This document shows positions 9,936 through 51,155 of a stretch of DNA of 64,000 nt, piece by piece; within the stretch, counting starts at the first letter, position 1; the number at the start of each line of letters is the position of its first letter. This stretch comes from an uncultured virus (IMG/VR IMGVR_UViG_3300005253_000330) (taxonomy: Duplodnaviria > Heunggongvirae > Uroviricota > Caudoviricetes): IMG/VR virus record IMGVR_UViG_3300005253_000330, one strand, 5' to 3'. Position numbers and translations under genes: made by a program. The notes beneath the pieces were generated by a model. The model did no database searches. It was not told where the DNA came from and saw only the letters and a program-made list of their open reading frames with translations.

Positions 9936-10133
9936 GTGCCAAATAATTCAAACAACGCCTTCAGACCCAAGACAGCCTTCCAAGGTTGGATCTATTCAGA
10001 AATCAAGAATATAAAAGCGTTGTTCAACAACCATTTGACAGAACATAAAGTCTTGTCTGGGCGGATATTTGCTTTTTTAGTTGCTATTTTATTGGGTATT
10101 TTAGGAATTTTGGGAAGGATGTTGTTTAAATGA
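9936..10133 (+). CDS. Small membrane protein, possible holin
   Basis: One C-terminal hydrophobic helix; SD AGGAGG; immediately upstream of the endolysin. Confidence 0.45.
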   Translation: MPNNSNNAFRPKTAFQGWIYSEIKNIKALFNNHLTEHKVLSGRIFAFLVAILLGILGILGRMLFK

Positions 10134-10492
10134 TAAATGACATTAAGGTTAGCCGAAACTTCAAACTTTACGAACTCGAATCACCAGATACCCACGAAGT
10201 CAAAATAGACAAAAGAATGCTCAGTATAATCCAAACGATACGGGACTACTTTCAAAAACCAGTAATTATCACGAGTGGCTATCGCACAAAAGAACATAAT
10301 CGAGCAGTCGGCGGAGTTGATAATAGTTACCACACGCAAGGCAAAGCAGTGGATTTCTTCATCAAGGGAATTAAACCAAAAGAACTTTTGAGAGTATCGG
10401 AATACTGCGGGGCAACAGGTCTGGGATTTTATCGGGGTCGCCACTTCATCCACATAGATATCGGAAAAAGAAGGAGTTGGGTTAAAGGTTAA
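10130..10492 (+). CDS. Peptidase M15A-family endolysin
   Basis: SRNFKLYE, ITSGYR...HN..VGG...SYHTQGKAVD, FIHID zinc-binding motifs. Confidence 0.9.
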   Translation: MINDIKVSRNFKLYELESPDTHEVKIDKRMLSIIQTIRDYFQKPVIITSGYRTKEHNRAVGGVDNSYHTQGKAVDFFIKGIKPKELLRVSEYCGATGLGFYRGRHFIHIDIGKRRSWVKG

Positions 10493-21517: not shown

Positions 21518-22018
21518 ATGAGTAAGAAAGAGATTACTAAAAAAGGATTAGAGCAACTTCGTAAAAAGATAGATTATAAAGATTTTGCTTTGTCAAAACC
21601 CCGAAGAAAGAAAAGGAAAAAGAAGTCTAATCTACAGAAACGGAAGGAGAACGACAATAGCAAATACTGGCGTAATAGGGCAGATAAGGAATGGTACCGG
21701 GTCCAGCATGAGATCTGGGAAAGCCGGTGTGCTATCTGTGGGAAGCTTGGGGAGATACACCACTTGATACCTAAGTCAACAAGGACTTATTCTGTCAGGC
21801 ATGCCAAAAAGAATGGAATGTGCCTCTGCGCGGATCACCACAAGTGGAATCCGGTCATCTCTGCCCATGGAAGCCCGATAAGTTTTAGTTTATGGTTGCA
21901 AGAGACTTATCCGGAACTGCATGATTGGGTATTGGAAAATAGGTGGAAACTGAAGCAACCCTATAATTTTAGGGAAGCATACTTGAGACTTATAAAAAAG
22001 AAAGAGTTGGAAAAATGA
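21518..22018 (+). CDS. HNH/NinG-like endonuclease
   Basis: CAICG...IHHLIP...NGMCLCADHH. Confidence 0.75.
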   Translation: MSKKEITKKGLEQLRKKIDYKDFALSKPRRKKRKKKSNLQKRKENDNSKYWRNRADKEWYRVQHEIWESRCAICGKLGEIHHLIPKSTRTYSVRHAKKNGMCLCADHHKWNPVISAHGSPISFSLWLQETYPELHDWVLENRWKLKQPYNFREAYLRLIKKKELEK

Positions 22019-22309: not shown

Positions 22310-22582
22310 ATTAGGAGGAATTATGAAACTAAAAGATTGGGAAGCATTTCAAAAGTATAGAGATAAGAGGTTAAAGAAAGTAATTGATTCAAAAGAATAT
22401 AAAGAGATATACAAGCGAAGAAATGAAGCATTAAAAGTAGATACTGCTCATTTGGACTATTATCGTTTTGTTTATCCATTAACAGAAACATTATTAGATG
22501 CCCAAGAAAACCTTTTGATGATGGAAGTCCCCGAAAATACAGTAGAGGGTTGTTTAAATTGGTTGGTTGGGAGAAAGAAACA

Positions 22583-22990
22583 ATGACTGAGAACTTGCCC
22601 GCTAAAAAAGAAAAAATAATAAAGAAAAGAAGATTAAATCCTAAACAAGAACTCTTCTGTCAACTCTATGCGAGTGACGAGGAGTTTTTTGGTAATGGGG
22701 TTAAAAGTTATAAGAAAGCATATAAAATGGATGATTATAAAAGTGCTATGGTTTTAGCCTCAAATCTGTTAAGAAATATTAAGATATTAGATAGAATAAA
22801 TGTTTTGATGGATATAGTGATAAATAATGTGGTGGTGGACAAAGAACTCGCTTTTGTAATCAAACAAAAAGAAAATCTTCCGGCAAAAGTCTCGGCGATC
22901 AAAGAATACAATGTACTGAAAGGCAGAATAATCCAGAAGATAGAAAAAGAAGAAAGAATACTGATAATCAATCTTCATAAGGATGCGTGA
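22583..22990 (+). CDS. terS: Terminase small subunit
   Basis: LNPKQELFCQLY...GNGVKSY..AY...ASNLLRN..I HTH, upstream of TerL. Confidence 0.8.
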   Translation: MTENLPAKKEKIIKKRRLNPKQELFCQLYASDEEFFGNGVKSYKKAYKMDDYKSAMVLASNLLRNIKILDRINVLMDIVINNVVVDKELAFVIKQKENLPAKVSAIKEYNVLKGRIIQKIEKEERILIINLHKDA

Positions 22991-23879: not shown

Positions 23880-25322
23880 ATGGACTGGAAAGACCTCTGG
23901 CACCCGACAGACAGACAGATAGAAGCCCACAAGGCGGTGAAGAAGTATAAGTTTTTACTATATGGCGGAGCAGTAGGTGGTGGCAAGTCATACTTCTTGA
24001 GATGGGAGACGCTTTATTTACTGCTATACTTCTTTAACAAATACAAAATCACGGATATCGTGGCCGGGTTGTTTTGCGAGGATTACCCAAGCCTTAAAGA
24101 CCGCCAGTTATCTAAAATAAGAAAGGAGTTTCCTTTGGAGATAGGAAGGCATCACGCAGATCACAAGGAATACGGGAACTGCTTCTTGCTTAACCCGGGA
24201 TATGGTAGTGGAGTAGTGGCCTTTAGAAACCTCGATGACCCTTCAAAGTATGTGTCAGCCGAGTTTGCTGTGGTTGCCATTGATGAACTCACCAAGAACA
24301 AGAAGCAGGTCTTTGATGAACTAAGACACAGATTAAGATGGCCGGGGATACCTGATGTCAAGTTTATATCAGGTTCTAACCCAGGAAGCATAGGCCACGG
24401 CTGGGTCAAGAAGATGTGGTTCGACGGGACATTTGAACCTGGCGAGGAAGAAGCTCATCTCTTCCACTTCGTCAGGGCGTTGGCAACTGACAATCCTCAT
24501 TTAGACCCAAGTTACTATGCCACATTAAGCGGTCTTCCCCCGGATTTGAAAGCGGCCTTAAAAGACGGTAATTGGGACAGGTTCGCAGGCCAGTTCTTCA
24601 ATGAATGGGACCGAACCATACACGGAGAATGTCCTTTGATTAAAGGCCAATGCAACGAGATAATAGGCATAGACTACGGATACGAGAAACCTTCAAGCGT
24701 GGGTTGGTATAAGATAGGAATAGATGGGAAACTTACCAGATACAACGAACTTTACCAAACAGGACTGACCTACACTATGCTGGCTAAGAAGATTATAGAG
24801 ATGACAGAGGTTGACGATGAACTTAAATACCCAATCAATCTTGAATACATAGTAGCCGACCCTTCAATATGGAATGACAGAGCACATCATAAAGATGCCT
24901 TGATAGGAGAGTCCGGCGCCGAGACGATGCAGAGGATATTCAATGAGGCCTGGGGGGTCAGCAGAATTGTTCTGGTGCAGGGGGATAATAACAGAGTGGT
25001 GGGATGGGGCAGGTGCAGGGAATACTTGAAACCCTACAAAGACCAGCACGACCAAAAGACAGCCAAGTTCGGAGTAACGAGGAATTGCACCGAGTTCAAT
25101 AGGTCTTTCCCAGATTTGGTATTCTCCAAGACAAGGCAAGGAGATGTGGACACAACAGGCGAGGATCACGCAGGTGACGAGTTCAGGTATGTGGTGATGT
25201 CCCGCCCTGAAACTCCCACTCCTCCGTCTAAACACCATATACCCACCACAGAAGAACTGATACGAAAGAGGGTCAGGGACAGTCTGACAAAGAAGAAAGA
25301 GCCGAAGATAATAGGGATGTAA
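23880..25322 (+). CDS. terL: Terminase large subunit
   Basis: Walker A GGAVGGGKS, Walker B VAIDE, SNPG motif, nuclease motifs IGIDYG and DHAGDEFRY. Confidence 0.95.
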   Translation: MDWKDLWHPTDRQIEAHKAVKKYKFLLYGGAVGGGKSYFLRWETLYLLLYFFNKYKITDIVAGLFCEDYPSLKDRQLSKIRKEFPLEIGRHHADHKEYGNCFLLNPGYGSGVVAFRNLDDPSKYVSAEFAVVAIDELTKNKKQVFDELRHRLRWPGIPDVKFISGSNPGSIGHGWVKKMWFDGTFEPGEEEAHLFHFVRALATDNPHLDPSYYATLSGLPPDLKAALKDGNWDRFAGQFFNEWDRTIHGECPLIKGQCNEIIGIDYGYEKPSSVGWYKIGIDGKLTRYNELYQTGLTYTMLAKKIIEMTEVDDELKYPINLEYIVADPSIWNDRAHHKDALIGESGAETMQRIFNEAWGVSRIVLVQGDNNRVVGWGRCREYLKPYKDQHDQKTAKFGVTRNCTEFNRSFPDLVFSKTRQGDVDTTGEDHAGDEFRYVVMSRPETPTPPSKHHIPTTEELIRKRVRDSLTKKKEPKIIGM

Positions 25323-27901: not shown

Positions 27902-28219
27902 TTGGAGGTGACAAGAATGCAGAGAACTTGGGTAGATAGCGAAGGAAACAGAGGAAGGATTATCTTATTTTCCGAATTGCCCGACGATGCGGTTGACAAC
28001 CTACAAATAGAACATAAATTATCCCGAATGCCCCAGACCTTTCTGAAAGAGGAACATCTCAAATGCCTGACCCTGAAGCAGTTGGAAGTGATAACTATGC
28101 GGTTCTGGGGGGATATGGAAGTGAAAGAGATTGCCAAGAGGATAGGGATAACAAGTGACGCAGTATATCGGAGACTAAGAGGGGCGTATAAAAGACTTAG
28201 TATCGAGATAAACCTCTAA
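27902..28219 (+). CDS. Sigma70 region-4-like HTH regulator
   Basis: LTLKQLEVITMRFW..MEVKEIAKRIGITSDAVYRRLRGAYKRL; the true start is probably the ATG near 27917. Confidence 0.75.
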   Translation: MEVTRMQRTWVDSEGNRGRIILFSELPDDAVDNLQIEHKLSRMPQTFLKEEHLKCLTLKQLEVITMRFWGDMEVKEIAKRIGITSDAVYRRLRGAYKRLSIEINL

Positions 28220-28261: not shown

Positions 28262-30415
28262 ATGCCAAAAATATGGACAAAAATTTTATCAGGAAAGAAA
28301 GAAAGCCAGCAACTCACAGAAGAACAACAAGCCGACCTTAAATTCGTAGATGATTTTTACGATGAAGGAATGAAAGCCAGACGCCCCTATGAGAAGCAAT
28401 GGTATATCAATATGGCCTTCTTTCTTGACCAACACTGGCTTACTTGGAACGATACCAAGAGGAAATTGGAAAAGCCCGTCGTTCCTTCTTGGAGAAAACA
28501 CATAACGATTAACAAAATAAAACCCAATGTCTTACATATATTAGCCAAACTCACTAAAAATAAACCAATCTATCAAACCATTCCCGCTACTACGGAGGAC
28601 GATGACCGAAACCGAGCAGAAATCTCTTTGAAAGTTCATAAGTATTTACATCGTATCAACCAGATGGACATCCTTAATCAACGCCTTTATCTATGGAAAA
28701 TAATCTACGGGACGGCATTTAAAGAACCTTATTTTGACGAATCGAAGGGAACGAAAATCCCCAAGAAAATTAAGACTGAAACAATAGAAGGCCAAGAAGT
28801 TCCGATTAAGGTTAAAGGCAAAGAGCAATACTACGATACCGATTATACTGGTGAAGTTAATAACGAAATATACAGTCCTTTTTCTATTCTTCCCGAATCA
28901 GGAGCAACCGACTTTGAACATTCGCAACGGATGATGAAAATAGTCACAAAGTCAATCGAATACATCAGAGAAAAATATGAGGCGGGCAAGTTCGTAAATG
29001 CGGAGTCCAGGACTGCTGGTTCTTCGGTGCAAAGCCAACTGCTTAATTTGATGGGTGAGCAATATACCACGCCCCACATCACCCAGAAAGACAAGAAAGA
29101 GAAAACATCGGCAGAGGGATTCGCCATTATCAAAGAACTAAAGGAACTACCGAGCAAGAAACATCCCAAAGGAAGACTCATTAGGGTTTCTAATGGCGTG
29201 TTGCTTGACAGTGGCCCTTTGCCTTATAAATTTATGATAAGACGTAGGACTTTCGGAATAGTCAAATATGACTACACTCCAGTAGCCGAGAGGTTCTGGG
29301 GGGATACTTCGGTCGTTTCTATGATACCCATTAATGTTGAATTGAACAAGACAGTATCCCAGATTATTGAGATTAAAAATTTAACGGCCAAGCCGAAGTG
29401 GATTGCCTACACACAGAACAAATTAATTGAAACTGCCATTACTTCGGAATCAGGTGAAATAATAACGATAACTCACGTCCCAGGTGTTCCAGACCCCCAT
29501 CCTATTGACCCACCAAATATACCTGCTTATGTTCCGGGATTATTGGAACGAGGGGATAAGGATTTGGAAGATGTATCACTTATCCACGAAGTCTCAAAAG
29601 GAGTCACGCCTCCCGGGGTGACTTCTGGAGTAGCCATCCAGTTTTTACAGGAACAAGATCAGACAGTCTTCGGGCCAGTCGCCAGTCGGTTTGAAACCAA
29701 AGAAGGCGAAGCGGGAACTTACGAACTGGAAATCGTTAAAGAAAGATATAGAGAATCAAGGGTAATAAAAATAGTCGGAGAAAATAACGAAATAGAAGTT
29801 TTTGATTTTATGGCTACAAAGGATATGCCTACCGATGTCATAGTTCAGTCGGGTTCTTCGTTACCCCATAGTTTAGTAGCCAAGCAGCAGTTGGTCTTGC
29901 AGTTCTACGACAAGGGAATGCTGGGCGATCCCCAAGACCCGCAAGTAAGACAGAAAGCGATGAGACTGGCCGAGATGGGCGGGGTTGACGTTATCTACGA
30001 AGAGGCGGCCGCTGACGAAAGAGAGGCAGAAAGAGAACACAAACTCTGGGAGAAAGGTTTACCTGCCGAAGTCCAATTTTTTGACAACCACAAGACCCAT
30101 CTCATCAGACATTATCTATTCTGCAAGTCCGACAGATACCGCAACCTTATTAAGGAAAGGCCGCAGTTTGAGGTAGGAGTAAAGGCTCACATTGACGCAC
30201 ACACCCAGCAAGACCCAGAACGAATAGCGATGCAGAAGCAGGAACAGATGATGCAAGAACAACAGCAAGTCCAAAGGAAGCAGTTGGAAGTCGACAGTGC
30301 GATTAAACTCCAAAAAGCAGATGATGACCGAGCAACGGCAGCGAGTAAAGTATTAACAGAGGTTACTACACGGGAAAGGCCTCCAGAAAAATCTCCGCAA
30401 GGAAAGAAGAAATGA
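28262..30415 (+). CDS. Portal protein (P22-like)
   Basis: 717 aa; ITINKIKP..., FWGDTS, GVTSGVAIQFLQEQD, Gln-rich C-terminal barrel; lies between TerL and scaffold/capsid. Confidence 0.85.
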   Translation: MPKIWTKILSGKKESQQLTEEQQADLKFVDDFYDEGMKARRPYEKQWYINMAFFLDQHWLTWNDTKRKLEKPVVPSWRKHITINKIKPNVLHILAKLTKNKPIYQTIPATTEDDDRNRAEISLKVHKYLHRINQMDILNQRLYLWKIIYGTAFKEPYFDESKGTKIPKKIKTETIEGQEVPIKVKGKEQYYDTDYTGEVNNEIYSPFSILPESGATDFEHSQRMMKIVTKSIEYIREKYEAGKFVNAESRTAGSSVQSQLLNLMGEQYTTPHITQKDKKEKTSAEGFAIIKELKELPSKKHPKGRLIRVSNGVLLDSGPLPYKFMIRRRTFGIVKYDYTPVAERFWGDTSVVSMIPINVELNKTVSQIIEIKNLTAKPKWIAYTQNKLIETAITSESGEIITITHVPGVPDPHPIDPPNIPAYVPGLLERGDKDLEDVSLIHEVSKGVTPPGVTSGVAIQFLQEQDQTVFGPVASRFETKEGEAGTYELEIVKERYRESRVIKIVGENNEIEVFDFMATKDMPTDVIVQSGSSLPHSLVAKQQLVLQFYDKGMLGDPQDPQVRQKAMRLAEMGGVDVIYEEAAADEREAEREHKLWEKGLPAEVQFFDNHKTHLIRHYLFCKSDRYRNLIKERPQFEVGVKAHIDAHTQQDPERIAMQKQEQMMQEQQQVQRKQLEVDSAIKLQKADDDRATAASKVLTEVTTRERPPEKSPQGKKK

Positions 30416-30519
30416 CAGGACAAACTTTAGCCACATATGCAGGAGCATTAAAACGAGATTACAAAGACTTGCATATGAGAATTGCTAAAGCGAGATTAAA
30501 ACGGAAGAAAAGGAGATAG
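30412..30519 (+). CDS. 35-aa peptide resembling the major capsid N-terminus
   Basis: MTGQTLATYAGALKRDYKDLHMRIAKARLKRKKRR; ATGA overlap with the portal stop. Confidence 0.65.
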   Translation: MTGQTLATYAGALKRDYKDLHMRIAKARLKRKKRR

Positions 30520-30521: not shown

Positions 30522-30713
30522 ATGCCTTATCCTAACATTCCAAAACATTTACAATCCAAGATGGAAAGATGCGTTGCTAAAGTTAAAGCAAAAGGCGGAG
30601 TTAAAAATGCCTATGCTGTTTGCTATCGAAGTTTGATGGGAAGTAAGGGTGGTGAAAACCCTAACTCAATACACGAAAAAATAGCCCAAGCAAGATTAAG
30701 GAGGAAGAAGTGA
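30522..30713 (+). CDS. Small basic head-module protein
   Basis: MP...KMERCVAKVK...NAYAVC; SD AGGAGA. Confidence 0.6.
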   Translation: MPYPNIPKHLQSKMERCVAKVKAKGGVKNAYAVCYRSLMGSKGGENPNSIHEKIAQARLRRKK

Positions 30714-31042
30714 AAAAGGCAACTAAAAAGGTAGTTAAGAAAGTAATTGAGAAAGAAAAAACCCTTGAAGAATTAAACCGAGAAATTAAATGGTTACGCA
30801 CAGAGTGGCGCAACGATTACAGTTCGTGCAGGACATTAGTTCGGAGAGACAGAAGAAACACCCCTGGCAGACTTTATAAGGTATTGAAAATTTCTGACAA
30901 GGGATTTTGCATATTGATATATGGGAGAGAAAAGAAAGACTACGAAAATATCTCCTTGGGTAAGGAGTGGGCGATATAGAAGACCAAGCGGAACAAAGTC
31001 TATTAGGACTAATCTAAAATCCGCAGTCTAAGGAGGAGTAGG

Positions 31043-31879
31043 ATGCCTATCGTAGAAAAAGAAGAGAAGAAGGGTGACCAAGTAGTCTTAGAGGAAAAAG
31101 GAACTCCAGAGAAAGAAACGGAGCAACCCAAACCCGAAGGTGACACAGTCAAACCCGAAGAAGTAAAGATGGTGGAGATTGAGGGGAAGAAAATGCCACT
31201 CTCTCAAATTCAGGAGGCTTTGAAAGATTCTGAAAACAAGAGCAAGTGGCAGAGAGAACTAACCCAGAAAGGCCAGAGTATTGCCGATGACACCAAATTG
31301 ATTGAGCGACTCAAACCGATGGCCGCTTTTCTTGACGACCCTGCTAATGAGGAAAAACGTAAGAAAATTGAGGCTATCGCCGAGGGGATTGAAGAAGCAA
31401 GAGAAGAACTGCCTCCAGAGGATGAACTCGAAGACCCTGCTATTGCCAAGTTAAGAAAGAAGTATGACATAGCACTTGCCAAAATTGATAAGACGCTAAC
31501 AACCATACAGCGTGGTTCATCTGAAAAAGAACTGGCAGACACTGCACGAGAAGTTGCTCAAGAAAGGAAAGAAGTCAAGGTAAAATACAAAGACCTGGAC
31601 GAGAGTGAACTTGCTTTTATCGAAGAAATTGCTCTTGGAAGACAAGGCGAAAATCTTGTTAAGGTTGCTGATGAGTATGTCAAATACCTACAGGGAAGGG
31701 ACAAAGGCACTATCAAGACATACTTGGAGGACAAGGAAAAAGACGGCAAGAAATTCGCTGAAATTGGGGGTTTACCATCTGCTTCACCTGAAAGAAAATT
31801 ATCCCTCTGGGGAGAGGGAAAGGATTCACCAAGAAAAGCACTTGAAAACACATTAAATAGATTGAAAAAGGAGGAATAA
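31043..31879 (+). CDS. Scaffolding protein
   Basis: Highly charged and helical; VEIEGKKMPL...WQRELTQKGQ; directly upstream of the capsid gene. Confidence 0.75.
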   Translation: MPIVEKEEKKGDQVVLEEKGTPEKETEQPKPEGDTVKPEEVKMVEIEGKKMPLSQIQEALKDSENKSKWQRELTQKGQSIADDTKLIERLKPMAAFLDDPANEEKRKKIEAIAEGIEEAREELPPEDELEDPAIAKLRKKYDIALAKIDKTLTTIQRGSSEKELADTAREVAQERKEVKVKYKDLDESELAFIEEIALGRQGENLVKVADEYVKYLQGRDKGTIKTYLEDKEKDGKKFAEIGGLPSASPERKLSLWGEGKDSPRKALENTLNRLKKEE

Positions 31880-31880: not shown

Positions 31881-33212
31881 ATGGGACAAGACCTTTCGAA
31901 TTTTGCTGGTGCCTTAAAGAGGGATTATCACGGCCCGATTGTAGACGCTCTTAACAACCTCAGCATCCTCTATTCGCAGTTGGACAAAAACGAGGAAGAT
32001 GTTCAGGTTTCAGGAGAGGGTTTTTCGGCCTACATTCCCATCAAGGTCAAGCGAAATGTAAGAGGCGTTGCCGTCCGTGCAGAGGGCGGAGTTTTACCCA
32101 CTGCTGGCCATACTACAGTTAAGCAGTTAGTTATACCTTTGATGTATAACTACGGCGGAATTAACTTTACTGGCCAAGTAATCAAAGCATCTGCAAAGTC
32201 TGCGACTTCGTTCGCCAAAGTGGCGGATTTAGAAGTCAAGGATATGGTTACCAATTTCAGGATTGGGACCAACAGGCAGATGTTTGCACCTGCCTCTGGC
32301 TATTTATGCCAGACCAATGGAGCCGACCAAAGTGGTTCCAATTCTACGGTAACCGTAAACAATCCAGGAACACAGTGGTTCGAAGTGGGAATGACAGTTC
32401 AGTCGTTCCCCGACACTACTTCTGGAGCGGCCTCTGGTGATAGTGACATCAGTCAAGGATTGACAGAACCAACCTCGCATATGGTTGGGAACATTCTGTC
32501 TTCCACGACCTTCCAATTGAACGATTACACTGATGCCGAGATTACCACTGAAAAGTGGGCTACTGACAGGTTCATCTTCAACTGGGGAGCCAGAACTTTG
32601 GAGATGAACGGATTGATGGACATAATCGATAATTATAGCCTTCAGTCAACTTCGTCTTGGTTCGGACTTCAGTTAGGACTCCAGACCATTCACGGTTTGA
32701 GCAGGTCAACTTATCCTATACTGGAATCTAACATCGAGCACGGTAGCAACAGTAACAGGGACATTTCCGAGGGTTTGCTACAGGACTTGCTGGACGCCAT
32801 TGAAAAGTCAGCGGGGAAACAGCAAGACAACAGGACGCTTCACTTCATTACTACTTATGGTGTGAGGAAAATGTATGCCGACTTGCTACAGGCAGACAGG
32901 AGATATATGAAACCTGTCGATTTGAAGGGTGGATGGAAAACCCTTGCTTATCAGTCAGGGAATGACTTAATTCCTTTCATTGTTGATAAGCATTGCACAC
33001 CTAACACTGTCTTCTGTTTTGACACCCGATACTTGAAAATCTACCGGGCGGGCAACTTTGACTGGATGGATTTTGACGGGCATATGTTCAGGCAGAAGGT
33101 TGATACCAGTGGAAGATACGATGTATGGGAAGCAATGATGTACTGTTACATGAATCTTGGCTGCTCCAGCTTTCGTAACCAGGGCGCTTTGAGGGATATC
33201 AGCGAGAGTTAA
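31881..33212 (+). CDS. Major capsid protein (HK97 fold), segment B
   Basis: ALKRDY.GPI, EGGVLP.AG, MNGL..I, GLSRSTYP, PFIVDKHC; follows the scaffold. Confidence 0.85.
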   Translation: MGQDLSNFAGALKRDYHGPIVDALNNLSILYSQLDKNEEDVQVSGEGFSAYIPIKVKRNVRGVAVRAEGGVLPTAGHTTVKQLVIPLMYNYGGINFTGQVIKASAKSATSFAKVADLEVKDMVTNFRIGTNRQMFAPASGYLCQTNGADQSGSNSTVTVNNPGTQWFEVGMTVQSFPDTTSGAASGDSDISQGLTEPTSHMVGNILSSTTFQLNDYTDAEITTEKWATDRFIFNWGARTLEMNGLMDIIDNYSLQSTSSWFGLQLGLQTIHGLSRSTYPILESNIEHGSNSNRDISEGLLQDLLDAIEKSAGKQQDNRTLHFITTYGVRKMYADLLQADRRYMKPVDLKGGWKTLAYQSGNDLIPFIVDKHCTPNTVFCFDTRYLKIYRAGNFDWMDFDGHMFRQKVDTSGRYDVWEAMMYCYMNLGCSSFRNQGALRDISES

Positions 33213-33240: not shown

Positions 33241-33723
33241 ATGGAAGACAACATTTTCATTTTGAACTATGTTGCAGGATTGTTTGACGGTGAGGGCTGT
33301 ATTGTTGTTGCCCTTCAGAAACCAACCCCCAAAAACCAACTTCAATCTACCATCCATTGGCTTCAGGTAGCCATAGCCATGTCTCACCAGCCAACGATGG
33401 AGTGGTTGAAAGGTTGTTTTGGAGGTTGTATTGTGACCGATAAAAAAGGAAAAAGTAGGGGAGACAGAAGGCCTCACTATTCTTGGAGAGTCCAAGGCAA
33501 TCAAGCCAAAGATTTCCTTCTCAAAATAATCCCATTCTTGAGATACAAAAAAGAACAAGCACTTCTGGCCATTGATTTTCAGACCAAGAAACAAGAACAG
33601 AAAGGGAAGCCATATGTTAAACTTCCCGATATCATTGTTCAAGAAAGAGAGGAATACAGAAACAGACTTCGACGAATGACAAACGGAAAAATGTCTGTTA
33701 CTGGATACCAAAACAGTTTTTAG
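33241..33723 (+). CDS. Single-motif LAGLIDADG homing endonuclease
   Basis: YVAGLFDGEGCI...FGG.I...YSWRV...FLLKIIPFLRYKKEQA. Confidence 0.9.
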   Translation: MEDNIFILNYVAGLFDGEGCIVVALQKPTPKNQLQSTIHWLQVAIAMSHQPTMEWLKGCFGGCIVTDKKGKSRGDRRPHYSWRVQGNQAKDFLLKIIPFLRYKKEQALLAIDFQTKKQEQKGKPYVKLPDIIVQEREEYRNRLRRMTNGKMSVTGYQNSF

Positions 33724-37909: not shown

Positions 37910-38809
37910 ATGCACTTGCTCGAAATGATACAGCAAGCAAAAACCGATCACGGACACTCAGCACTGTTAGATACAAGTGCTCTCACTACAGAGGTGGACG
38001 ACAAACTGACTATTGCAAGTTGGGTAAGGTGGATAAATAATTCTCAACAATACCATCAGGGCATCGTGCTTGAAGCAGCCCAAGATTACTTCGGAACACA
38101 ACAGACCATTTCTTATGTCTCTGGAACTAATGAATACTCTCTACAGGGAAATGAACTCCGTATAAGATTGATAGAAAGAACCGATACCGACCCCGACAGA
38201 ATTATTAGGCCGATTATTATAAATGACAGACTATTAGCCACTCCTAAATATGCCGCTTGGAATGTCTTCCGTTCACGGGAGTATTCCTACCTCTGGGGCA
38301 ATATGATTGGGTTTGTGGCAGGCGAGGCAGGCACTGCTGATGTTCTTTACATTAGACGCCTGCCCGATTTGTCTTACGGGACTGCCTCTGCCGCAGACGC
38401 CACATCCATAACCCTCTCCACAACTCCTACCTTTGGAACTACCGCAATCACAGACGATTACTATAATGGTGCTACAGTCAGGATAGTCTCTGGAACTAAC
38501 TCAGGTCAACAGGCAGTAGTTACTGATTATGTCGCAAGCACTAAAGTCATTACGGTTGCTTCGTGGCTTTCTGGAACTCCGTCAGGAACTATCGTATATG
38601 ACATAGTCTGCGACATTCCTGTTCAGCACCACGAGGCAATTTGTATCTATGCCGCCATTAAAGCAAAGATGTCCGATAAGGATGATACGAGACAACTTCA
38701 AGCCCATCACAAAGGACTTATAGAACGAATGGTGGCGGGTTTATCAATAAGAAGTTCCCAAGAGCCTCGCTACATCAGATATTTAGAGGACCCTGGATAT
38801 GATTGGTAA
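37910..38809 (+). CDS. Head-tail adaptor (P22 gp4/T7 gp11-like) with inserted domain
   Basis: WINNSQ...SGTNEYSL...YIRRLPDL...IPVQHHEAICIYAA. Confidence 0.7.
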   Translation: MHLLEMIQQAKTDHGHSALLDTSALTTEVDDKLTIASWVRWINNSQQYHQGIVLEAAQDYFGTQQTISYVSGTNEYSLQGNELRIRLIERTDTDPDRIIRPIIINDRLLATPKYAAWNVFRSREYSYLWGNMIGFVAGEAGTADVLYIRRLPDLSYGTASAADATSITLSTTPTFGTTAITDDYYNGATVRIVSGTNSGQQAVVTDYVASTKVITVASWLSGTPSGTIVYDIVCDIPVQHHEAICIYAAIKAKMSDKDDTRQLQAHHKGLIERMVAGLSIRSSQEPRYIRYLEDPGYDW

Positions 38810-38819: not shown

Positions 38820-39080
38820 ATGCCTAAACTATTATCAATCAAACGATTTAGAGGAATGATAACCACGGGAGATGTTAAAGATATACCTCCTGACCACTGT
38901 TATATACAACAAGATATGACCAATATCTTATTAGATAGTATCAGCACCCGCCCCGGAACTACCAAGTCCAATACGAGTGCTTATGCGGGGGGGTTGTTAG
39001 GGCTTTTTCAGTATAGAAAAAAGAGCGGACAATACAAGACGCTTTCTGCTAATTCTAATGGGGAACTTCGGGGAGACTGA
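38820..39080 (+). CDS. Tail nozzle N-terminal module, copy 1
   Basis: F.GM.T......P.......DM.......TRPG..K.N motif typical of nozzle/stabilisation protein N-termini. Confidence 0.6.
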   Translation: MPKLLSIKRFRGMITTGDVKDIPPDHCYIQQDMTNILLDSISTRPGTTKSNTSAYAGGLLGLFQYRKKSGQYKTLSANSNGELRGD

Positions 39081-39901
39081 TGCCTAAATTACTTTCAATA
39101 AAAAACTTTTTAGGAATGAATACAACGAAGCGGAAATTACCCCCCCAGCAGGCAAGAGAAATATCTGATATGGTTTCTGAGAGGGGATTAACGAGGACTC
39201 GACCAGGCTTCGGAAAATACAATGTCTTGGCTCAAAGTGGGGCTATTTTAGGTATATTTGATTACAGAAGAAAGAATGGACAGAAAGGTTATTTGTTCGC
39301 TGATGCTAATGGGGACTGGTGGGAGTGGGAGCAGTTTCATTTTGGCCCAGAGGAAGATGGTGGAGACAATTTCTGGTGGACAGTAATGTATGAAGCGAAT
39401 GAGATGCCCGATGTAGCATATCCTGTATGGATTCTATATGATCAACTAAATAAATGTTCAGTATCTAATGGAATATTGACAATACCGTTTACTGCTGAAG
39501 TTAGTAATGAAATAGTGGTTTATCAAGAAGATGTTATGGCCAACAATGCAACTGGGAATATTTTAGAAATAAGAGCAAAAGGGGTTGGGCTTGAATCCAG
39601 TGGCCCAAATGCACAATTCAGTATCCGAGATGGCACTAAGCAGAGTTCGATGGCAATTAGGTCTGATAAGATTCTCGGCGGTGCTTCTGAGTATGTTATG
39701 GATACTATGGATGATTATCATATTTATCGACTTACGGCTAAAGGGACTAATTCTAAAGTCTATGTCGACGGTGTTTTAAGAATAACATTTACTCCCTCTT
39801 CAAACGCACTTAACAAAGTTTATTTTGGCCTTTATAGTCCAAGTGGTTTATCTTGTTCTCTTCTTATAGATTATGTCCGCTACTACACAGGAGGCTTTTA
39901 G
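39080..39901 (+). CDS. Tail nozzle N-terminal module, copy 2, fused to a lectin/LamG-like domain
   Basis: Paralogous first ~85 aa; C-terminal DDYHIYRL...KVYVDG...IDYVRY. Confidence 0.6.
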   Translation: MPKLLSIKNFLGMNTTKRKLPPQQAREISDMVSERGLTRTRPGFGKYNVLAQSGAILGIFDYRRKNGQKGYLFADANGDWWEWEQFHFGPEEDGGDNFWWTVMYEANEMPDVAYPVWILYDQLNKCSVSNGILTIPFTAEVSNEIVVYQEDVMANNATGNILEIRAKGVGLESSGPNAQFSIRDGTKQSSMAIRSDKILGGASEYVMDTMDDYHIYRLTAKGTNSKVYVDGVLRITFTPSSNALNKVYFGLYSPSGLSCSLLIDYVRYYTGGF

Positions 39902-41948: not shown

Positions 41949-42533
41949 ATGCCATTTCCAAAAGGGGGAATTCCTTGGAACAAAGGTATTCCTCGGACAA
42001 AAAAAACAAAGGAAAAAATGTCTGAAACGAGAAAGCAAAGAATAGCAAGTGGTATGATAGTAATTTGGAATATAGGTATTCCTTGTTCTAAAAAGATTAA
42101 AGAAAACTTAAGAATTGCAAATTTAGGCAAACAACATTCTGAGAAATCCAAACAACTTAGAAGAGAATGGAATCTAAAACATAATTGGAAACCACCTGTA
42201 AACTGGGGGGCTGATAATTATAATTGGAAAGATGGAAGAAAAAAACATAAGGCTGGCTATATTTTAATTCTTCAACCTGATCACCCGAAGGCGAGTTATA
42301 ACTATGTTATGGAACATCGGTTAGTTATGGAGAAAAAGATAGGCAGATATTTAGAAAGGTGGGAGATAGTTCACCACATCAATGGAATAAAAGACGATAA
42401 CAGACCAGAAAATTTGGATTTATGTCCAAACCAAACAGAACATTTAGCAGTTACTAAATTAGTAGAAGAAAATAAACAATTAAAGAAAAAGATTAAAGAA
42501 TTAGAAAAGAGGTTACAAGATGTTAGGAAATAG
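41949..42533 (+). CDS. NUMOD3 + HNH homing endonuclease
   Basis: [45 protein letters not shown]. Confidence 0.9.
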
Positions 42534-44758: not shown

Positions 44759-46723
44759 ATGGTACAGACTGGGTACTCAGGGATTATGAGGAAGAATTGG
44801 GGGGATATAGGACTCGATTATAAGTACAACTACCCAAATAACCTTGACCTTCGCCCAAAGTCGCAGCTGCATAGGGAGATAGTAGACAGATTGGGTGAGA
44901 TGACTAAGGAATCGCACTCTGTCATGTCCCGTCGGTACTCGGACTGGCAAGCTATTGACCACACTCTAACAGCGTATATACCAACTGATGAGGAAGAGGA
45001 TGAGCTGCTTGCTGTAGACTCCAGGACTCCAGTATCAGTTGTTGTGCCTGTCTCTCTATCTATCCTCGAGACGTTGATGTCCAGTTTCACAGCTGGATTC
45101 CTTGACAGACCATACTTTAAGTATGGCGGTGTTGGTCCTGAGGATAGGCTGAAGGCTATCATGCTTGAGCACATTGTAGACATCCATACTGTTAGGTTTA
45201 AGGTTGGACTTAACATGATGACACAGTGGCGTGACCAGTTCGCTTATGGGTTGGGTGTAGTGACACCTACATGGGATGTTATCAGGGGAAGGCGGACTAC
45301 TGTTGAGGACACGAGCTTTTTCGACGCACTGTCTGGAATATTCACTGGTAATGGAAGTCGTAGGAGGCGTTCGAGGGTGCGTACCCTGTTTGAAGGGAAT
45401 AGGTTAGACAATATAGATATATATAGGTATCTGCCTGACCCAAACTTCCCACCACATGAGGTACAGAGGGGTAGGTATGTTGGCTGGTCGTCGAGAGAGA
45501 CATACATGAGTCTACTCGAGGATGAGGAGTACTCGACTGAGGATTTGTTCAACGTTAAGTACATAAAGCATATAGACGGCCATAGTGCTATGTTTATGTC
45601 AGACCAGTCTGGTAGACAGACGAAGACTGGCACGAATGTGATGCTTGGGTCTACAGAGAACCAGCCGGTTGATGTTACTTATATGTATGTCAAGTTGATA
45701 CCAGCTGAGTGGAAACTTGGTAGGTCAGAGAGGATAGAGAAGTGGAGGTTTGTAGTCGCCGGCGATGAGGTGATAATTGGTGCTAAGCCACTTGGCCTTG
45801 ACCATGACATGTTTCCAGTCGCTGTGACTGCACCATACTTCGACGGGCATTCTGCAACTCCGGTTAGCCCACTGGAGATACTCTATGGATTGCAGAAGTA
45901 CGCTGACTGGTGTGTTAATTCGCATAAAGCTAATCAGCGTAAGGCACTGAATGACATGTTCGTAGTTGACCCTCAACTGGTCAACATACATGATGTGAGA
46001 GACCCTGGGCCTGGCAAGATTATCAGGATGAGGGAGAGTATGTGGGGTAGGGGTGTGCAAGGGATTGAGCAGCTGAAGGTGACAGATGTAACTGCTGGTA
46101 ATATGGTTGACCTTGGTATCATAACCCAGATTATGAATAAGGCAGTTGGAACACCTGACCAGATTCAGGGGGTTATGAGGACAGGCCCTGAGCGGATGGC
46201 TGGAAGTGAGGCCAAGAATGTTGCGCTGGCTGCACTATCAAGGGTTAAGCGGATGGCTACAGTGACAAGCATTATGTCTAACCATGATGTAGCTATGATG
46301 TTTGCCTACCATACTCAGCAGTTGATGAAGCAGAATGTATACTCTGAATTGGCTGGTGAGTGGGAGGACTTGTTTAGGAGACAGTATCCATCATTTGACA
46401 CAGAGAAGCCGTTTGAGATTAAACCAAAGGATATAGTGGTTGACTTCGATGTGATACCAGTTGACCCAAATATAGGCGGCGACGAGCATATGGACACCCT
46501 TGTACAGATGCTGCAGATCATTGTACAGAGTGAGGAGTTGAGTAAGGAGATTGATGTACCAACTCTTGTCAAGCATATATTTAGGGTTGGTGGATTTAAG
46601 GACGTTGAGGCCTTCGTGAGGAGGAGAGGTGGTCAAGCTAATGTTAGCGTGATGCCTGATGAGGAGGTTGGAGAAGAGGTGACCAAAGGGAATCTGAGAC
46701 CCATTGGAGCAGGAGTTAACTAA
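44759..46723 (+). CDS. Portal protein, segment C
   Basis: 654 aa; PVSVVVPVS, NDMFVVDPQLVN..D...PGKIIR; precedes scaffold and capsid. Confidence 0.8.
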   Translation: MVQTGYSGIMRKNWGDIGLDYKYNYPNNLDLRPKSQLHREIVDRLGEMTKESHSVMSRRYSDWQAIDHTLTAYIPTDEEEDELLAVDSRTPVSVVVPVSLSILETLMSSFTAGFLDRPYFKYGGVGPEDRLKAIMLEHIVDIHTVRFKVGLNMMTQWRDQFAYGLGVVTPTWDVIRGRRTTVEDTSFFDALSGIFTGNGSRRRRSRVRTLFEGNRLDNIDIYRYLPDPNFPPHEVQRGRYVGWSSRETYMSLLEDEEYSTEDLFNVKYIKHIDGHSAMFMSDQSGRQTKTGTNVMLGSTENQPVDVTYMYVKLIPAEWKLGRSERIEKWRFVVAGDEVIIGAKPLGLDHDMFPVAVTAPYFDGHSATPVSPLEILYGLQKYADWCVNSHKANQRKALNDMFVVDPQLVNIHDVRDPGPGKIIRMRESMWGRGVQGIEQLKVTDVTAGNMVDLGIITQIMNKAVGTPDQIQGVMRTGPERMAGSEAKNVALAALSRVKRMATVTSIMSNHDVAMMFAYHTQQLMKQNVYSELAGEWEDLFRRQYPSFDTEKPFEIKPKDIVVDFDVIPVDPNIGGDEHMDTLVQMLQIIVQSEELSKEIDVPTLVKHIFRVGGFKDVEAFVRRRGGQANVSVMPDEEVGEEVTKGNLRPIGAGVN

Positions 46724-47007
46724 TGGCCAGCACTGCTTTGGGCAAGTATTGGGAGTGGAAACACTTCTCTGAATCTGAATTGTGGATGGAGATGGTCGAT
46801 AAGCTATACGACACAATTAAGCACCTTACTATTGTCACTGAGAACCCTGAGTCTACTGTTGACCAGTTGAGGGTTGCTCAAGGTGAGATAAGGATGGCTA
46901 GGCAGGTCATTGGTGGGCCTGGTGACAAGATGAATAGCATGAAAGCAGACATGAGTGATGAGGAACTGAGGAACCTGAACGACGAGGAGCAAGATGATGC
47001 CCAATGA
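46723..47007 (+). CDS. Small conserved protein after the portal
   Basis: LRVAQGEI motif; helical. Confidence 0.55.
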   Translation: MASTALGKYWEWKHFSESELWMEMVDKLYDTIKHLTIVTENPESTVDQLRVAQGEIRMARQVIGGPGDKMNSMKADMSDEELRNLNDEEQDDAQ

Positions 47008-47962
47008 AGGTAATATTGAGGTTAGTGGCGATGTTGCCAGGATGCTTAGCTCTGTAGAAGGGCTACTAGGCGGCGGAGACACTGATAATGTAGATGATAA
47101 GGACACTGGCACTGAAGATGATGAGGGTGCCGACGACACTACTACTCCTAACGATAAGTCAGCTGAAGAAGCTGATAGTGAGGAGGAGAGTGTCAAGGAC
47201 GATGCATCTACAGATGACGATGATAAAGGTGACGATGACAAGGATGATGACAGTGATGAGGAAGGTGAAGAAGATCTCAGTGACCTAGAGGAAGAGAACA
47301 AAATCCTGCGAGAGTCATTGGAGAAAGTTGCGCAGATGGTTGGGACTCAGCAGGATGTGTCTGCACCACCGGCTGATGATGGTGGAGAGGTTAAGCCTAA
47401 GGAGTCGGCTAAACCTGATGTTAGCGTACCGGAATTGAAGGGCGACGTCATAGAGTTTGTTAGGACAGAGGATGAGTTCAACAATGCTCTCTCATCGAGG
47501 GACGGACTCAACAAGCTTCTAACAGGCGTGTTCCAAAGTGGAAGACAGTCAATGCTCTTAGAAGTTCCGGAGATAGCTAGCAGTCAGGTGCAAGAGTCGA
47601 TTGAACAGGCTATGACCTATTTCTCGTTCTATACAGAGCACAGAGACCTGAAGCCGTTTGGTGGGCTGGTTGTCCAGATGGTCCAACAGGTGCAGACTAA
47701 GAACCCTGGTTGGAAAAAGGACCAGATTCTCGAAGAGGCGGCTACTAAGACAAGGGAGCTGCTGAGAATGGCCAGGGGTGAGAAGGAGCTCTCAAAGGGT
47801 GATAAGCGTAGGCATAAGAGGAGAGAACCTGCGCTTTCATCTGGCCGTAGTTCCCGGAAACGGGTTAAGTCTGGCAAGAAGGAGCTCTCAAAGGTCGCTG
47901 AGGATGTGTTGAAGATGACTGGGATGAGTGAAGAGGAGTTCAACGAGAAGCTGCGTTCATAA
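46994..47962 (+). CDS. Scaffolding protein, segment C
   Basis: Very acidic disordered N-half and basic C-terminus. Confidence 0.7.
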   Translation: MMPNEGNIEVSGDVARMLSSVEGLLGGGDTDNVDDKDTGTEDDEGADDTTTPNDKSAEEADSEEESVKDDASTDDDDKGDDDKDDDSDEEGEEDLSDLEEENKILRESLEKVAQMVGTQQDVSAPPADDGGEVKPKESAKPDVSVPELKGDVIEFVRTEDEFNNALSSRDGLNKLLTGVFQSGRQSMLLEVPEIASSQVQESIEQAMTYFSFYTEHRDLKPFGGLVVQMVQQVQTKNPGWKKDQILEEAATKTRELLRMARGEKELSKGDKRRHKRREPALSSGRSSRKRVKSGKKELSKVAEDVLKMTGMSEEEFNEKLRS

Positions 47963-47970
47963 TATGAACG
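47953..47970. promoter_or_regulatory. GTTCA-N5-TGAAC palindrome, copy 1
   Basis: GCGTTCATAATATGAACG at the scaffold stop. Confidence 0.55.
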
Positions 47971-47997
47971 ACGCTGTTAAATCAACCTTTAGGAGAT

Positions 47998-48354
47998 GTG
48001 AAAAGAATGGGTGCTCGAACTAGGTTCTTTGAGGACTATCAGTCGAGTAGGGAGAGCAAGGACTTTGTCCTGAACTCGGATGCTAGCATCACCCTATCTG
48101 CCTTTCAGCAGACATGCATCGCTAACACCACTGGCGCGACACATGACACTATCACTCTACCATCCATGGCTGACGCCAAGGGGAAAATCTACTCTGTGTA
48201 TTTCAAGACACAGGTTAGTACTGGTGATGTGATTGTGGTTGGAGCTGGTGATGAGGCGACTGCATACACTAAGACCATCACAGTCGCAGATGGTTGGGTA
48301 GTTTGCTACTGCGACGGGTACAACTGGTACTCTCTGGACGAGAAACTATCGTAG
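47998..48354 (+). CDS. Small beta-rich capsid-associated protein
   Basis: TITLPSMADAKGKIY...YCDGYNWY. Confidence 0.5.
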   Translation: MKRMGARTRFFEDYQSSRESKDFVLNSDASITLSAFQQTCIANTTGATHDTITLPSMADAKGKIYSVYFKTQVSTGDVIVVGAGDEATAYTKTITVADGWVVCYCDGYNWYSLDEKLS

Positions 48355-48362
48355 GAGGATGA

Positions 48363-48725: not shown

Positions 48726-48731
48726 GGAAGG

Positions 48732-49994: not shown

Positions 49995-50002
49995 TTGATA
50001 TG

Positions 50003-50032: not shown

Positions 50033-50044
50033 TTGGAGGCTATC

Positions 50045-51151: not shown

Positions 51152-51155
51152 TACA

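What the first reader, a model, noticed from the sequence alone, without database searches (positions are those of the whole stretch)
30412..30519. Unannotated 35-aa peptide that copies the major capsid N-arm and adds a basic tail
Seen: MTGQTLATYAGALKRDY-KDLHMRIAKARLKRKKRR versus capsid MGQDLSNFAGALKRDY-HGP. AGALKRDY is identical at protein level but mostly uses different codons (GCA GGA GCA TTA AAA CGA GAT TAC vs GCT GGT GCC TTA AAG AGG GAT TAT), which implies selection on the peptide. Its tail resembles the end of the next ORF (IHEKIAQARLRRKK). It is translationally coupled to the portal gene. Inference: an N-arm mimic that fills vacant capsid sites at the portal vertex, anchors DNA inside the head, or modulates assembly.
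Basis: partly seen in the sequence, partly recalled or inferred. Interest (0 to 1): 0.72.

Follow-up and report, generated by a model that had tools for sequence, protein, structure and literature searches.

The report
Small capsid-arm copy with basic tail
An uncultured marine-sediment phage and some of its relatives keep a tiny gene just after the portal gene that joins a copy of the first helix of the capsid protein to a strongly basic helix; it is probably an overlooked helper in virus-head assembly, but nobody has tested what it does.

Summary
The ORF is real. Window 30412-30519 encodes 35 aa. Residues 1-17 copy the first N-arm helix of the phage's own HK97-fold capsid protein (8 of 8 identical in AGALKRDY, mostly different codons). 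Residues 18-35 copy the basic C-terminal helix of the next gene, ORF63. The match is far beyond chance.

Orthologues sit in 3 related contigs. A whole-library profile search added 3 more, giving 7 distinct sequences. All four genes seen in context start on an ATGA overlap with the upstream gene. Window versus the 84%-capsid relative gives pS 0.83 and pN 0.20, plus an in-frame 9-nt indel, so the peptide is under purifying selection.

Carriers are 4 of 20 lineages and lie in one capsid subclade (one gain, one loss).

Not supported: step-for-step co-evolution with the cognate capsid. The copy matches the family consensus better than its own capsid (ranks 13, 11, 15 and 6 of 51).

Function is untested. 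My best guess is a low-copy head-assembly peptide that uses the capsid-arm helix to bind the arm's normal partner, by analogy the scaffold C-terminus, and so carries a basic tail into the procapsid. Phage T4 gp61.1 has the same design, verified here. No description was found in print.

The parts
30412..30519 (+). ORF35: 35-aa small gene, net charge about +10, predicted as one long helix
   Evidence: Searches give the ORF. One search shows purifying selection against L011. One search gives the 7-member family alignment. One search is the AlphaFold2 model on that 7-row alignment: helix 6-34, mean pLDDT 81.5.
30412..30462 (+). Codons 1-17: copy of the capsid N-arm first helix
   Evidence: score 59, 0 of 200 shuffles. 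The family-invariant residues T5 L6 T8 K14 Y17 fall largely on positions conserved in the capsid helix: L12 and Y16 invariant, K13 nearly invariant.
30463..30516 (+). Codons 18-35: basic C-terminal helix, paralogous to the ORF63 tail. Its last codons carry the ORF63 ribosome-binding site AAGGAG (30510-30515).
   Evidence: score 49 against 17.4, 0 of 5000 shuffles. The tail has pN 0.086 with saturated synonymous change. Sequence.
28262..30415 (+). Portal gene; its stop codon overlaps the ORF35 start (ATGA)
   Evidence: P22_portal, E 3e-22; phrog_156.
30399..30406 (+). AAGGAAAG Shine-Dalgarno-like stretch upstream of ORF35, inside the portal's last codons
   Evidence: read from the sequence.
30522..30713 (+). 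ORF63: small conserved protein of unknown function. Its last 14 residues (30669-30710) are the paralogue of the ORF35 tail.
   Evidence: The family has a conserved N-domain and variable basic tails, and all members are annotated hypothetical.
30710..30979 (+). ORF89: conserved small head-module gene (GTG start overlapping the ORF63 stop)
   Evidence: orthologues in L011 and L037.
31043..31879 (+). Scaffold-like protein, 278 aa, with an acidic N-part and a conserved C-terminal helix. It is named scaffold by position and composition only.
   Evidence: 12-row alignment. Searches found no family match.
31881..33212 (+). Major capsid protein (HK97 fold). Codons 1-17 (31881-31931) are the template of the copy.
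   Evidence: One search is the model: pLDDT 84, helix 5-16, but the first 20 residues have pLDDT of only 56-69. One search gives HK97-fold capsid hits.

Best explanation
ORF35 is a real, selected accessory gene of the head-assembly module.

Its product is a single helix of about 35 residues built from two borrowed parts. The front half copies the first N-arm helix of the phage's own major capsid protein. The back half is a basic amphipathic helix shared with the neighbouring small protein ORF63.

It arose once in a subclade of these podovirus-like phages, most simply by fusing a capsid 5' end to an ORF63-type 3' end. It has been kept since, apart from one loss.

Proposed mechanism (inferred, not shown): the N-arm helix is the handle by which capsid subunits are held by the C-terminal helix or hook of the scaffolding protein in P22 and 80alpha. 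A free copy of that helix should bind the same partner. The peptide is made in small amounts, because its translation is coupled to the portal gene or to other small post-portal genes. It would ride on scaffold into the nascent procapsid, probably near the portal. There it would leave a very basic tail that binds the incoming DNA or acidic portal or scaffold surfaces. In effect it would be a capsid-interior address label made by copying the capsid protein's own scaffold-binding helix.
For: Shown here:
- The ORF and both resemblances are far beyond chance.
- Orthologues lie in L011, L037 and L015 at the same place between portal and scaffold, each with an ATGA start overlap.
- A profile search of 1.84 billion representative proteins added three members: P0049, P0050 and P0052, with E from 1e-5 to 3e-4.
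- Selection: pN 0.196 against pS 0.83, plus an in-frame 9-nt indel, between the window and L011.
- In population contigs there is no change inside the ORF, no indel and no stop. One of the runs may be the window's own source.
- The residues invariant across the 7 members (T5, L6, T8, K14, Y17, with L/M13) form one helical face. They coincide with capsid-family invariants L12 and Y16 and near-invariant K13.
- The copy ends exactly where capsid helix 5-16 ends.
- Carriers form one 6-row capsid subclade, support 93/96, needing 2 changes.
- The parts are modular. In L037 the N-arm copy heads a 43-aa module that stands alone after the portal in L041-L043.

From the literature (passages read):
- In P22, scaffold hook residues R293 and K296 bind D14, E15 and E18 of the coat N-arm, and the hooks also contact the portal (PMC12005531).
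- In 80alpha, the scaffold C-terminal helix-and-hook packs on N-arm helix alpha1 (PMC5644958).

Analogy checked here: T4 gp61.1 joins an internal-protein-type leader (M1 K2 T3 E6 F7 shared with IPI and IPIII) to a copy of gp23 residues 57-93 (17 of 37 identical, E 6e-9) and a Lys-rich tail. The first 10 residues of IPIII are the capsid targeting sequence (PMC9026906).
Against: - No binding was shown for any partner.
- That this phage's scaffold-like protein binds the N-arm is only an analogy. The protein itself is named scaffold by position and composition, with no family match.
- The gene is absent from 16 of 20 related lineages, including the sister pair L004/L021 of the carrier L015. Head assembly therefore works without it.
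- The copy does not track its own capsid's N-terminus (ranks 13, 11, 15 and 6 of 51). A tight cognate interface is not indicated.
- Part of the basic tail is also ribosome-binding-site sequence for the next gene.
- The ORF35 tail shows no significant likeness to scaffold C-termini (0 of 11 pairs with p below 0.05).
- There are no expression or virion data.
- Low copy number is inferred only from coupling and from a Shine-Dalgarno match weaker than that of the capsid gene.
Confidence: 0.4

Rival explanations
1. One reading: the peptide docks on capsid subunits themselves. It would fill the sockets that would otherwise take the N-arms of the pentamer missing at the portal vertex, with the basic tail touching the portal or the DNA.
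For: - The copy covers exactly the first N-arm helix.
- Expression is coupled to the portal gene in the window and L037, which would fit roughly portal-level copy number.
- N-arm residues do take part in portal-capsid contacts in T4: Met98 of the gp23 N-arm lies in the portal-anchoring cluster (PMC7136217).
Against: - No structural evidence shows that helix alpha1 of this capsid family makes inter-capsomer contacts or leaves empty sockets at the portal.
- In L011 and L015 the gene is not coupled to the portal.
- 16 of 20 relatives, which have the same portal-capsid mismatch, lack the gene.
- Docking to capsid protein was not tested here.
Confidence: 0.15
2. An assembly regulator that acts by competition. 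The free N-arm helix would occupy scaffold hooks, or the tail would occupy capsid N-arms. This would delay or limit scaffold-capsid association, or help scaffold release, without the peptide being packaged.
For: The evidence for mimicry is the same as for the best explanation. There is a precedent for competition at this interface: SaPI1 CpmB competes with the 80alpha scaffold at the capsid N-arm (PMC5644958; abstract and passages).
Against: A competitor has to be made in amounts comparable to scaffold or capsid protein. ORF35 has a weaker Shine-Dalgarno match than the capsid gene and relies on coupling to low-level genes (inference). There are no data on amounts.
Confidence: 0.12
3. An anti-defence decoy. 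The peptide would display the most conserved capsid epitope so as to saturate or mislead a host immune sensor that recognises the capsid protein.
For: The copy keeps the family-wide conserved residues and not the cognate-specific ones, which is what a decoy for a sensor of a conserved epitope would do. The gene is accessory and patchily distributed.
Against: The gene sits inside the late head operon and is translationally coupled to structural genes, not placed among early genes. The host is unknown and no defence system is linked to it.
Confidence: 0.08
4. There is no peptide function. The ORF would persist as a spacer or coupling device carrying ribosome-binding sites between the portal gene and ORF63, or as a slowly decaying chimeric relic of recombination between the capsid and ORF63 genes.
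For: Its 3' end carries the ORF63 ribosome-binding site and its 5' end overlaps the portal stop. Both halves have paralogues in the same genome. It is dispensable in most relatives.
Against: - Synonymous sites are saturated while the peptide is kept: pS 0.83 against pN 0.196, and tail pN 0.086.
- The indel is in frame.
- The motif is retained out to relatives whose capsid is 43% identical (L015) and in three further database members.
- The other two frames of the region carry stops.
Confidence: 0.07
5. A C-terminal extension of the portal made by a -1 ribosomal frameshift. The ORF35 frame is open for 21 codons upstream of its ATG and is the portal's -1 frame.
For: The frame relation and the upstream open stretch (56-codon open span; coordinates).
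Against: I read the last 21 portal codons and found no canonical X XXY YYZ slippery heptamer. In L011 and L015 the gene follows other small genes, not the portal. The ATG with an upstream Shine-Dalgarno-like stretch is conserved.
Confidence: 0.03

Closest known systems
Phage T4 gp61.1 (54 aa, annotated hypothetical protein; AF158101 18966-19130)
   Same: It is a small free-standing protein containing a copy of the N-terminal region of its own major capsid protein (17 of 37 identical to gp23 residues 57-93, E 6e-9), followed by a Lys-rich tail. It is uncharacterised: only 2 papers in the library mention gp61.1, and both listings are phage genome descriptions (listing only).
   Different: - No sequence similarity to ORF35.
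- It carries an internal-protein-type N-terminal leader, which ORF35 lacks.
- T4 uses a prohead protease, and none was found here.
- It lies among early or middle genes, not in the head operon.
- Its tail is mixed Lys/Glu, not purely basic.
T4 internal proteins IPI-IPIII with their capsid targeting sequence (CTS)
   Same: A short N-terminal peptide acts as an address that loads basic proteins into the prohead by binding the scaffolding core. The first 10 residues of IPIII suffice (PMC9026906, passage). This is the working model I propose for the N-half of ORF35.
   Different: The T4 CTS is a dedicated leader removed by the prohead protease. Here the putative address is a copy of the capsid protein's own helix, there is no CTS-like sequence, and no protease gene was found.
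Scaffold C-terminal hook binding the capsid N-arm (P22 gp8-gp5; 80alpha SP-CP)
   Same: It defines what the copied helix normally does: N-arm helix alpha1 is the docking site of the scaffold C-terminus (PMC12005531; PMC5644958).
   Different: Those are two-protein systems. No free N-arm copy is described in the passages I read. Whether this phage's scaffold-like protein binds the N-arm is untested.
SaPI1 CpmB (scaffold mimic of a phage satellite)
   Same: A small protein that exploits the same scaffold/N-arm interface by imitating one of the partners (PMC5644958; abstract and passages).
   Different: CpmB imitates the scaffold side and comes from a parasite of the phage. ORF35 imitates the capsid side and is encoded by the phage itself.
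Encapsulin cargo-loading peptides
   Same: Short terminal peptides that load cargo into an HK97-fold shell. This is from my own knowledge and was not checked here. Encapsulin shells were among the fold matches of the capsid model.
   Different: They are C-terminal tags that bind the shell protein. They are not copies of the shell protein.

Membership tests
Free-standing capsid-arm copy with a basic tail (the T4 gp61.1-type design; not a published family) | Small protein (under about 100 aa) with a segment significantly similar to the N-terminal arm of the same phage's major capsid protein | tested here: met
   35 aa. Score 59 against next best 30; 0 of 200 shuffles reach 59. The same holds in L011, L037 and L015, with scores 50, 42 and 43 against a background of at most 36.
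Free-standing capsid-arm copy with a basic tail (the T4 gp61.1-type design; not a published family) | Lys/Arg-rich C-terminal tail | tested here: met
   12 Lys/Arg in 35 residues, and basic tails in all 7 members. Part of the tail is also ribosome-binding-site sequence.
Free-standing capsid-arm copy with a basic tail (the T4 gp61.1-type design; not a published family) | Conserved among relatives under purifying selection | tested here: met
   pN 0.196 against pS 0.83 with an in-frame indel. 7 distinct members.
Free-standing capsid-arm copy with a basic tail (the T4 gp61.1-type design; not a published family) | Sequence homology to T4 gp61.1 | tested here: not met
   BLASTP finds no alignment at E up to 100. 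The likeness is in design only.
CTS-bearing head-internal proteins (T4 IPI-III type) | N-terminal leader of the MKT..EF type | tested here: not met
   The ORF35 family begins M-T/N-(E)-G-x-T-L. The T4 leaders share M1 K2 T3 E6 F7.
CTS-bearing head-internal proteins (T4 IPI-III type) | A prohead protease that removes the leader | tested here: not met
   No protease family was found among 65 window ORFs scanned with Pfam (12, 53), nor among the PHROGs scans of 12 and 25 ORFs. The only peptidase hit is an M15 cell-wall enzyme at 10130-10489.
CTS-bearing head-internal proteins (T4 IPI-III type) | Presence inside the prohead or virion | not testable with these tools
   Uncultured phage; no proteomics available.
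Major capsid protein fragment or pseudogene | Homology continuing beyond the first helix, or signs of decay | tested here: not met
   Similarity stops at residue 17. The ORF is intact, selected, and has its own start and stop in all 4 loci.
Scaffolding protein (C-terminal capsid-binding helix) | Tail resembles the scaffold C-terminus of the same genome | tested here: not met
   0 of 11 small-protein/scaffold pairs beat shuffles at p below 0.05 (lowest 0.149).

The most novel reading that the evidence does not exclude
Free-standing copies of the capsid protein's N-terminal arm fused to a basic tail may be a general class of small phage head proteins that has evolved repeatedly and has not been described. 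This podovirus-like lineage has no protease and uses a scaffold. T4 (gp61.1), which has a protease and a leader, arrived at the same design independently. Such peptides would act as surrogate capsid arms at places where the icosahedral lattice is interrupted or where scaffold hooks are free, such as the portal vertex, and would couple the shell or scaffold to the DNA.
Probability: 0.25. Interest if true: 0.85.

Novelty: new variant of a known kind. Interest (0 to 1): 0.62.

Why it matters
Head assembly of tailed phages is one of the best-studied self-assembly problems, yet proteins of 35 residues are routinely missed by gene callers. This exact peptide is absent from a collection of about 15 billion called proteins.

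A selected peptide that copies the one capsid segment known to hold the scaffold would be a new kind of player at the scaffold-capsid-portal interface. It could be a natural address label for the capsid interior or a surrogate subunit arm.

The same design occurs in T4 (gp61.1, verified here). That makes the question testable in a model phage: knockout, virion mass spectrometry and cryo-EM of the portal vertex.

If the label idea holds, a 17-residue tag derived from a capsid's own N-arm would be a simple rule for loading cargo into phage-derived nanocontainers.

Tried and rejected
- **Complex prediction.** Scaffold C-terminal region (residues 180-278, 12-row alignment) with ORF35 (4-row alignment) gave 'no support' (score 0.02, mark 0.32). 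This is no evidence either way.
- **Cognate co-evolution.** Not supported.
- **Tail as a scaffold C-terminus mimic.** Rejected: 0 of 11 pairs significant.
- **Tail likeness in other pairs.**
  - The L015 tail does not resemble its own upstream ORF42 (p 0.75).
  - The window tail does not resemble the L042 small protein (p 0.38).
- **DNA search.** The 5-kb head region against 50,697 phage records found no match.
- **Family libraries.**
  - Pfam and PHROGs give nothing for ORF35 and nothing above noise for ORF63 or ORF89.
  - The ESM Atlas returns only unnamed small proteins: top score 0.85 for ORF35 and 0.88 for ORF63.
- **Word-indexed protein search with the small-ORF profile.** It returned only the two orthologues already known.
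- **Whole-library profile search.**
  - No capsid protein hit at E up to 0.001.
  - Two of the 6 hits (P0051, P0053) are repeat proteins that I judged spurious.
- **PDB sequence search with the capsid profile.** Nothing significant: best capsid hit 7f38, E 0.027.
- **RNA evidence.** No RNA holder listed.
- **Frameshift fusion.** No canonical slippery site seen by eye.
- **My recollection about T4.** I recalled that T4 capsid 'whiskers' contact the portal. On reading PMC7136217 this was wrong: the whiskers belong to the portal.
- **Rows dropped from the presence/absence count.**
  - 11 short loci with under about 1.5 kb upstream of the capsid gene: L009, L010, L012, L013, L014, L018, L023, L026, L028, L031, L033.
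  - L007/L048, whose capsid start is ambiguous.
  - Duplicates of the same contigs: L001/L008/L040, L016/L045, L034, L044, L046.
The comparison was then made from stored files by coordinates.
  - Two calls returned errors: an E-value out of range and a query under 40 aa.
Full report
**Setting**

The window carries a podovirus-like head and packaging module on the + strand:
- small terminase, 22550-22987;
- large terminase, 23880-25322;
- a P22-type portal, 28262-30415;
- three small ORFs: 30412-30519, 30522-30713 and 30710-30979;
- an acidic 278-aa scaffold-like protein, 31043-31879;
- the major capsid protein, 31881-33212;
- a LAGLIDADG endonuclease, 33241-33723;
- an SU10-type adaptor, 37910-38809.

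The capsid model (AlphaFold2 on 31 homologues, mean pLDDT 84) has an HK97 fold. Its best solved matches are the cyanophage A-1(L), Pa223, Mic1 and SU10 capsids. It begins with helices at residues 5-16, 18-25 and 29-33, although the first 20 residues have pLDDT of only 56-69.

The DNA has no relative among 50,697 deposited phage genomes. It is held by marine-sediment metagenome runs from 3 studies. One relative lies on a contig of a Candidatus Omnitrophota metagenome-assembled genome.

In AGALKRDY, 8 of 8 residues are identical and 6 of 8 codons differ.

The first 22 capsid residues were scored against every six-frame segment of the window (2765 segments). The ORF scores 59 and the next best 30. 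None of 200 shuffled queries reaches 59 (maximum 46).

The tail matches the last 14 residues of the next gene, ORF63: score 49 against a shuffle mean of 17.4, with 0 of 5000 shuffles as high. The corresponding pair in the relative L011 gives p = 0.0004.

So the peptide is a chimera of two parts that both have paralogues nearby.

**It is a real, selected gene**

Capsid homologues were collected (45 proteins) and their loci fetched. A portal profile gave further loci.

A second copy of the capsid N-terminus occurs in the window, L011 (capsid 84% identical), L037 (64%) and L015 (43%). Scores are 59, 50, 42 and 43 against a background of at most 36. It does not occur in the other 16 lineages that have enough upstream sequence.

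In each carrier the copy heads a small ORF (35, 38, 60 and 35 aa) between portal and scaffold. Each ATG overlaps the stop of the upstream gene. That gene is the portal in the window and L037, and other small genes in L011 and L015.

A profile of the four sequences, run against 1.84 billion representative proteins, recovered the L011 protein and three new members of 64, 41 and 38 aa (E 1e-5 to 3e-4). It also returned two repeat proteins that I regard as spurious.

Between the window and L011, synonymous sites are saturated (pS 0.83) while pN is 0.196 (tail alone 0.086). The length difference is an in-frame 9-nt indel, and the other two frames carry stops.

Contigs from a second study carry the ORF unchanged. 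There are 2 differences in 801 nt, both outside the ORF, and no indel.

The exact peptide is not among the called proteins of a 15-billion collection, although its orthologues are. 'Unannotated' is therefore fair for this contig.

**Anatomy**

Across the 7 members, T5, L6, T8, K14 and Y17 are invariant and position 13 is Leu or Met. In the capsid family, L12 and Y16 are invariant and K13 nearly so. These align with L13, Y17 and K14 of the peptide.

The copy stops where capsid helix 5-16 stops. After that the peptide turns into the basic segment.

The peptide is modelled as one continuous helix, residues 6-34, pLDDT 81.5, from a 7-row alignment.

The last codons, AAA AGG AGA TAG, contain the AAGGAG ribosome-binding site of ORF63. 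The portal's own Lys-rich end similarly precedes ORF35. Part of the 'basic tail' is therefore doubly constrained.

The parts are modular:
- In L037 the capsid-arm copy heads a 43-aa module that stands alone after the portal in L041-L043.
- ORF63 belongs to a family with a conserved N-domain and variable basic tails. All members are annotated hypothetical.

**Evolution**

On a capsid tree of 20 lineages the four carriers fall in one 6-row clade (support 93/96). The label needs two changes, most simply one gain and one loss in the L004/L021 pair.

The small ORF's N-part is more like many other capsid N-termini than its own, with cognate ranks of 13, 11, 15 and 6 among 51 distinct N-termini.

What is kept is the family-wide core of the helix, not lineage-specific detail. 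Within the window, 7 of the 11 residues identical between copy and capsid use different codons, so there is no sign of recent gene conversion.

**Mechanism**

Shown: a selected, modular, helical peptide that preserves one face of the capsid's first N-arm helix and has a basic helix behind it.

Established elsewhere (passages read):
- The P22 scaffold hook binds coat N-arm residues D14, E15 and E18 through R293 and K296, and also contacts the portal (PMC12005531).
- The 80alpha scaffold's C-terminal helix-and-hook packs on N-arm helix alpha1, and SaPI1 CpmB exploits the same site (PMC5644958).

Inferred: the free helix binds what the capsid helix binds, most likely the scaffold C-terminus. It would thereby enter the procapsid in small numbers, where the tail binds DNA or acidic surfaces.

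The rivals are, in order of my estimate:
2. competition that regulates scaffold binding;
3. a decoy for a capsid-sensing host defence;
4. no peptide function;
5. a frameshift extension of the portal.

None of the first three is excluded by my data. The last two are disfavoured.

**Comparison with what is known**

ORF35 has no sequence family.

The closest design is T4 gp61.1. I confirmed three things about it:
- it begins like the internal proteins IPI and IPIII;
- it then copies gp23 residues 57-93, 17 of 37 identical, E 6e-9;
- it ends in a Lys-rich run.

That this stretch spans the gp23 maturation cleavage site is my recollection only.

gp61.1 has no similarity to ORF35. The likeness is one of design and presumably convergent.

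Earlier notes of this scan (plus e1-301371) list this design in seven further uncultured phages as well as T4, mostly T4-like ones with a leader. These are unchecked AI notes. I verified only the T4 case.

The present case differs in three ways: it lacks a leader, it lacks a protease (none found), and it sits in a scaffold-type podovirus module.

**In print**

I found no description. The searches were:
- N-arm, scaffolding protein, major capsid protein, mimic;
- 61.1, T4, gp23;
- gp61.1, giving 2 papers whose listings are phage genome descriptions;
- capsid targeting sequence, N-terminal arm, major capsid protein, basic tail, giving 0 papers;
- N-arm, portal vertex, symmetry mismatch.

Subscription-only literature is not covered.

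**Verdict**

The finding is a small, clade-limited accessory gene of an uncultured phage. Its design recurs in T4 and is not in the literature I could search. That makes it moderately to highly interesting and directly testable.

Noticed in passing
window 44759-64000: There is a second head module, unrelated to the first: an SU10-type portal-like gene at 44759-46720 and an SU10-type capsid gene at 48732-49991 (Pfam E 2e-11 and 2e-26). It has no detectable similarity to the first capsid gene. G+C rises from about 0.42 to about 0.49 at roughly 44.7 kb, and only 13 nt separate the flanking genes. None of the 4 related records searched holds this second capsid. The window may join two phages, either in tandem or as a chimeric assembly. 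The second capsid has no N-arm copy.
   Followed up: partly
window 33241-33723; also 4186-4734, 21518-22015, 41949-42530: A LAGLIDADG endonuclease gene lies directly behind the capsid gene. Three further endonuclease-like genes are scattered through the phage: NUMOD3/endonuclease I, HNH_2 and HNH_3.
   Followed up: no
window 38820-39080 and 39080-39901: Two adjacent genes (86 and 273 aa) begin with nearly the same 20 or so residues, as if the start of one gene had been duplicated in tandem.
   Followed up: no
window 30522-30713; L011 4357-4797: ORF63 belongs to a family of phage proteins of about 45-65 aa with a strongly conserved Cys-containing N-domain and variable basic tails. All are annotated hypothetical. 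The 146-aa L011 protein that carries the same tail matches DUF3008 just above its cut-off (E 4e-5).
   Followed up: partly
L037 4546-4728; L041 3896-4063; L042 4388-4519; L043 4704-4865: The 60-aa L037 protein is the capsid-arm copy fused to a 43-aa basic module. That module occurs on its own, right after the portal gene, in three contigs whose portal is about 52% identical.
   Followed up: partly
L038 2967-3131 (T4 gene 61.1): T4 gp61.1 combines three parts: an internal-protein-type leader, a copy of gp23 residues 57-93, and a Lys-rich tail. It is annotated only as a hypothetical protein.
   Followed up: yes
window 27902-28216: A small protein with sigma-70 region 4 lies immediately upstream of the portal gene (Pfam E 5e-9). 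It may be a late-gene regulator.
   Followed up: no
L004 4929-5979: The scaffold-like gene of this relative is split into two overlapping ORFs (4929-5777 and 5734-5979). This may be a frameshift or a sequencing error.
   Followed up: no
window 30388-30491, run X3: A second, diverged contig in run X3 aligns in pieces across the portal end and ORF35. It continues with an Arg-rich coding end like that of L011, which suggests another carrier of the small gene in the same habitat.
   Followed up: no
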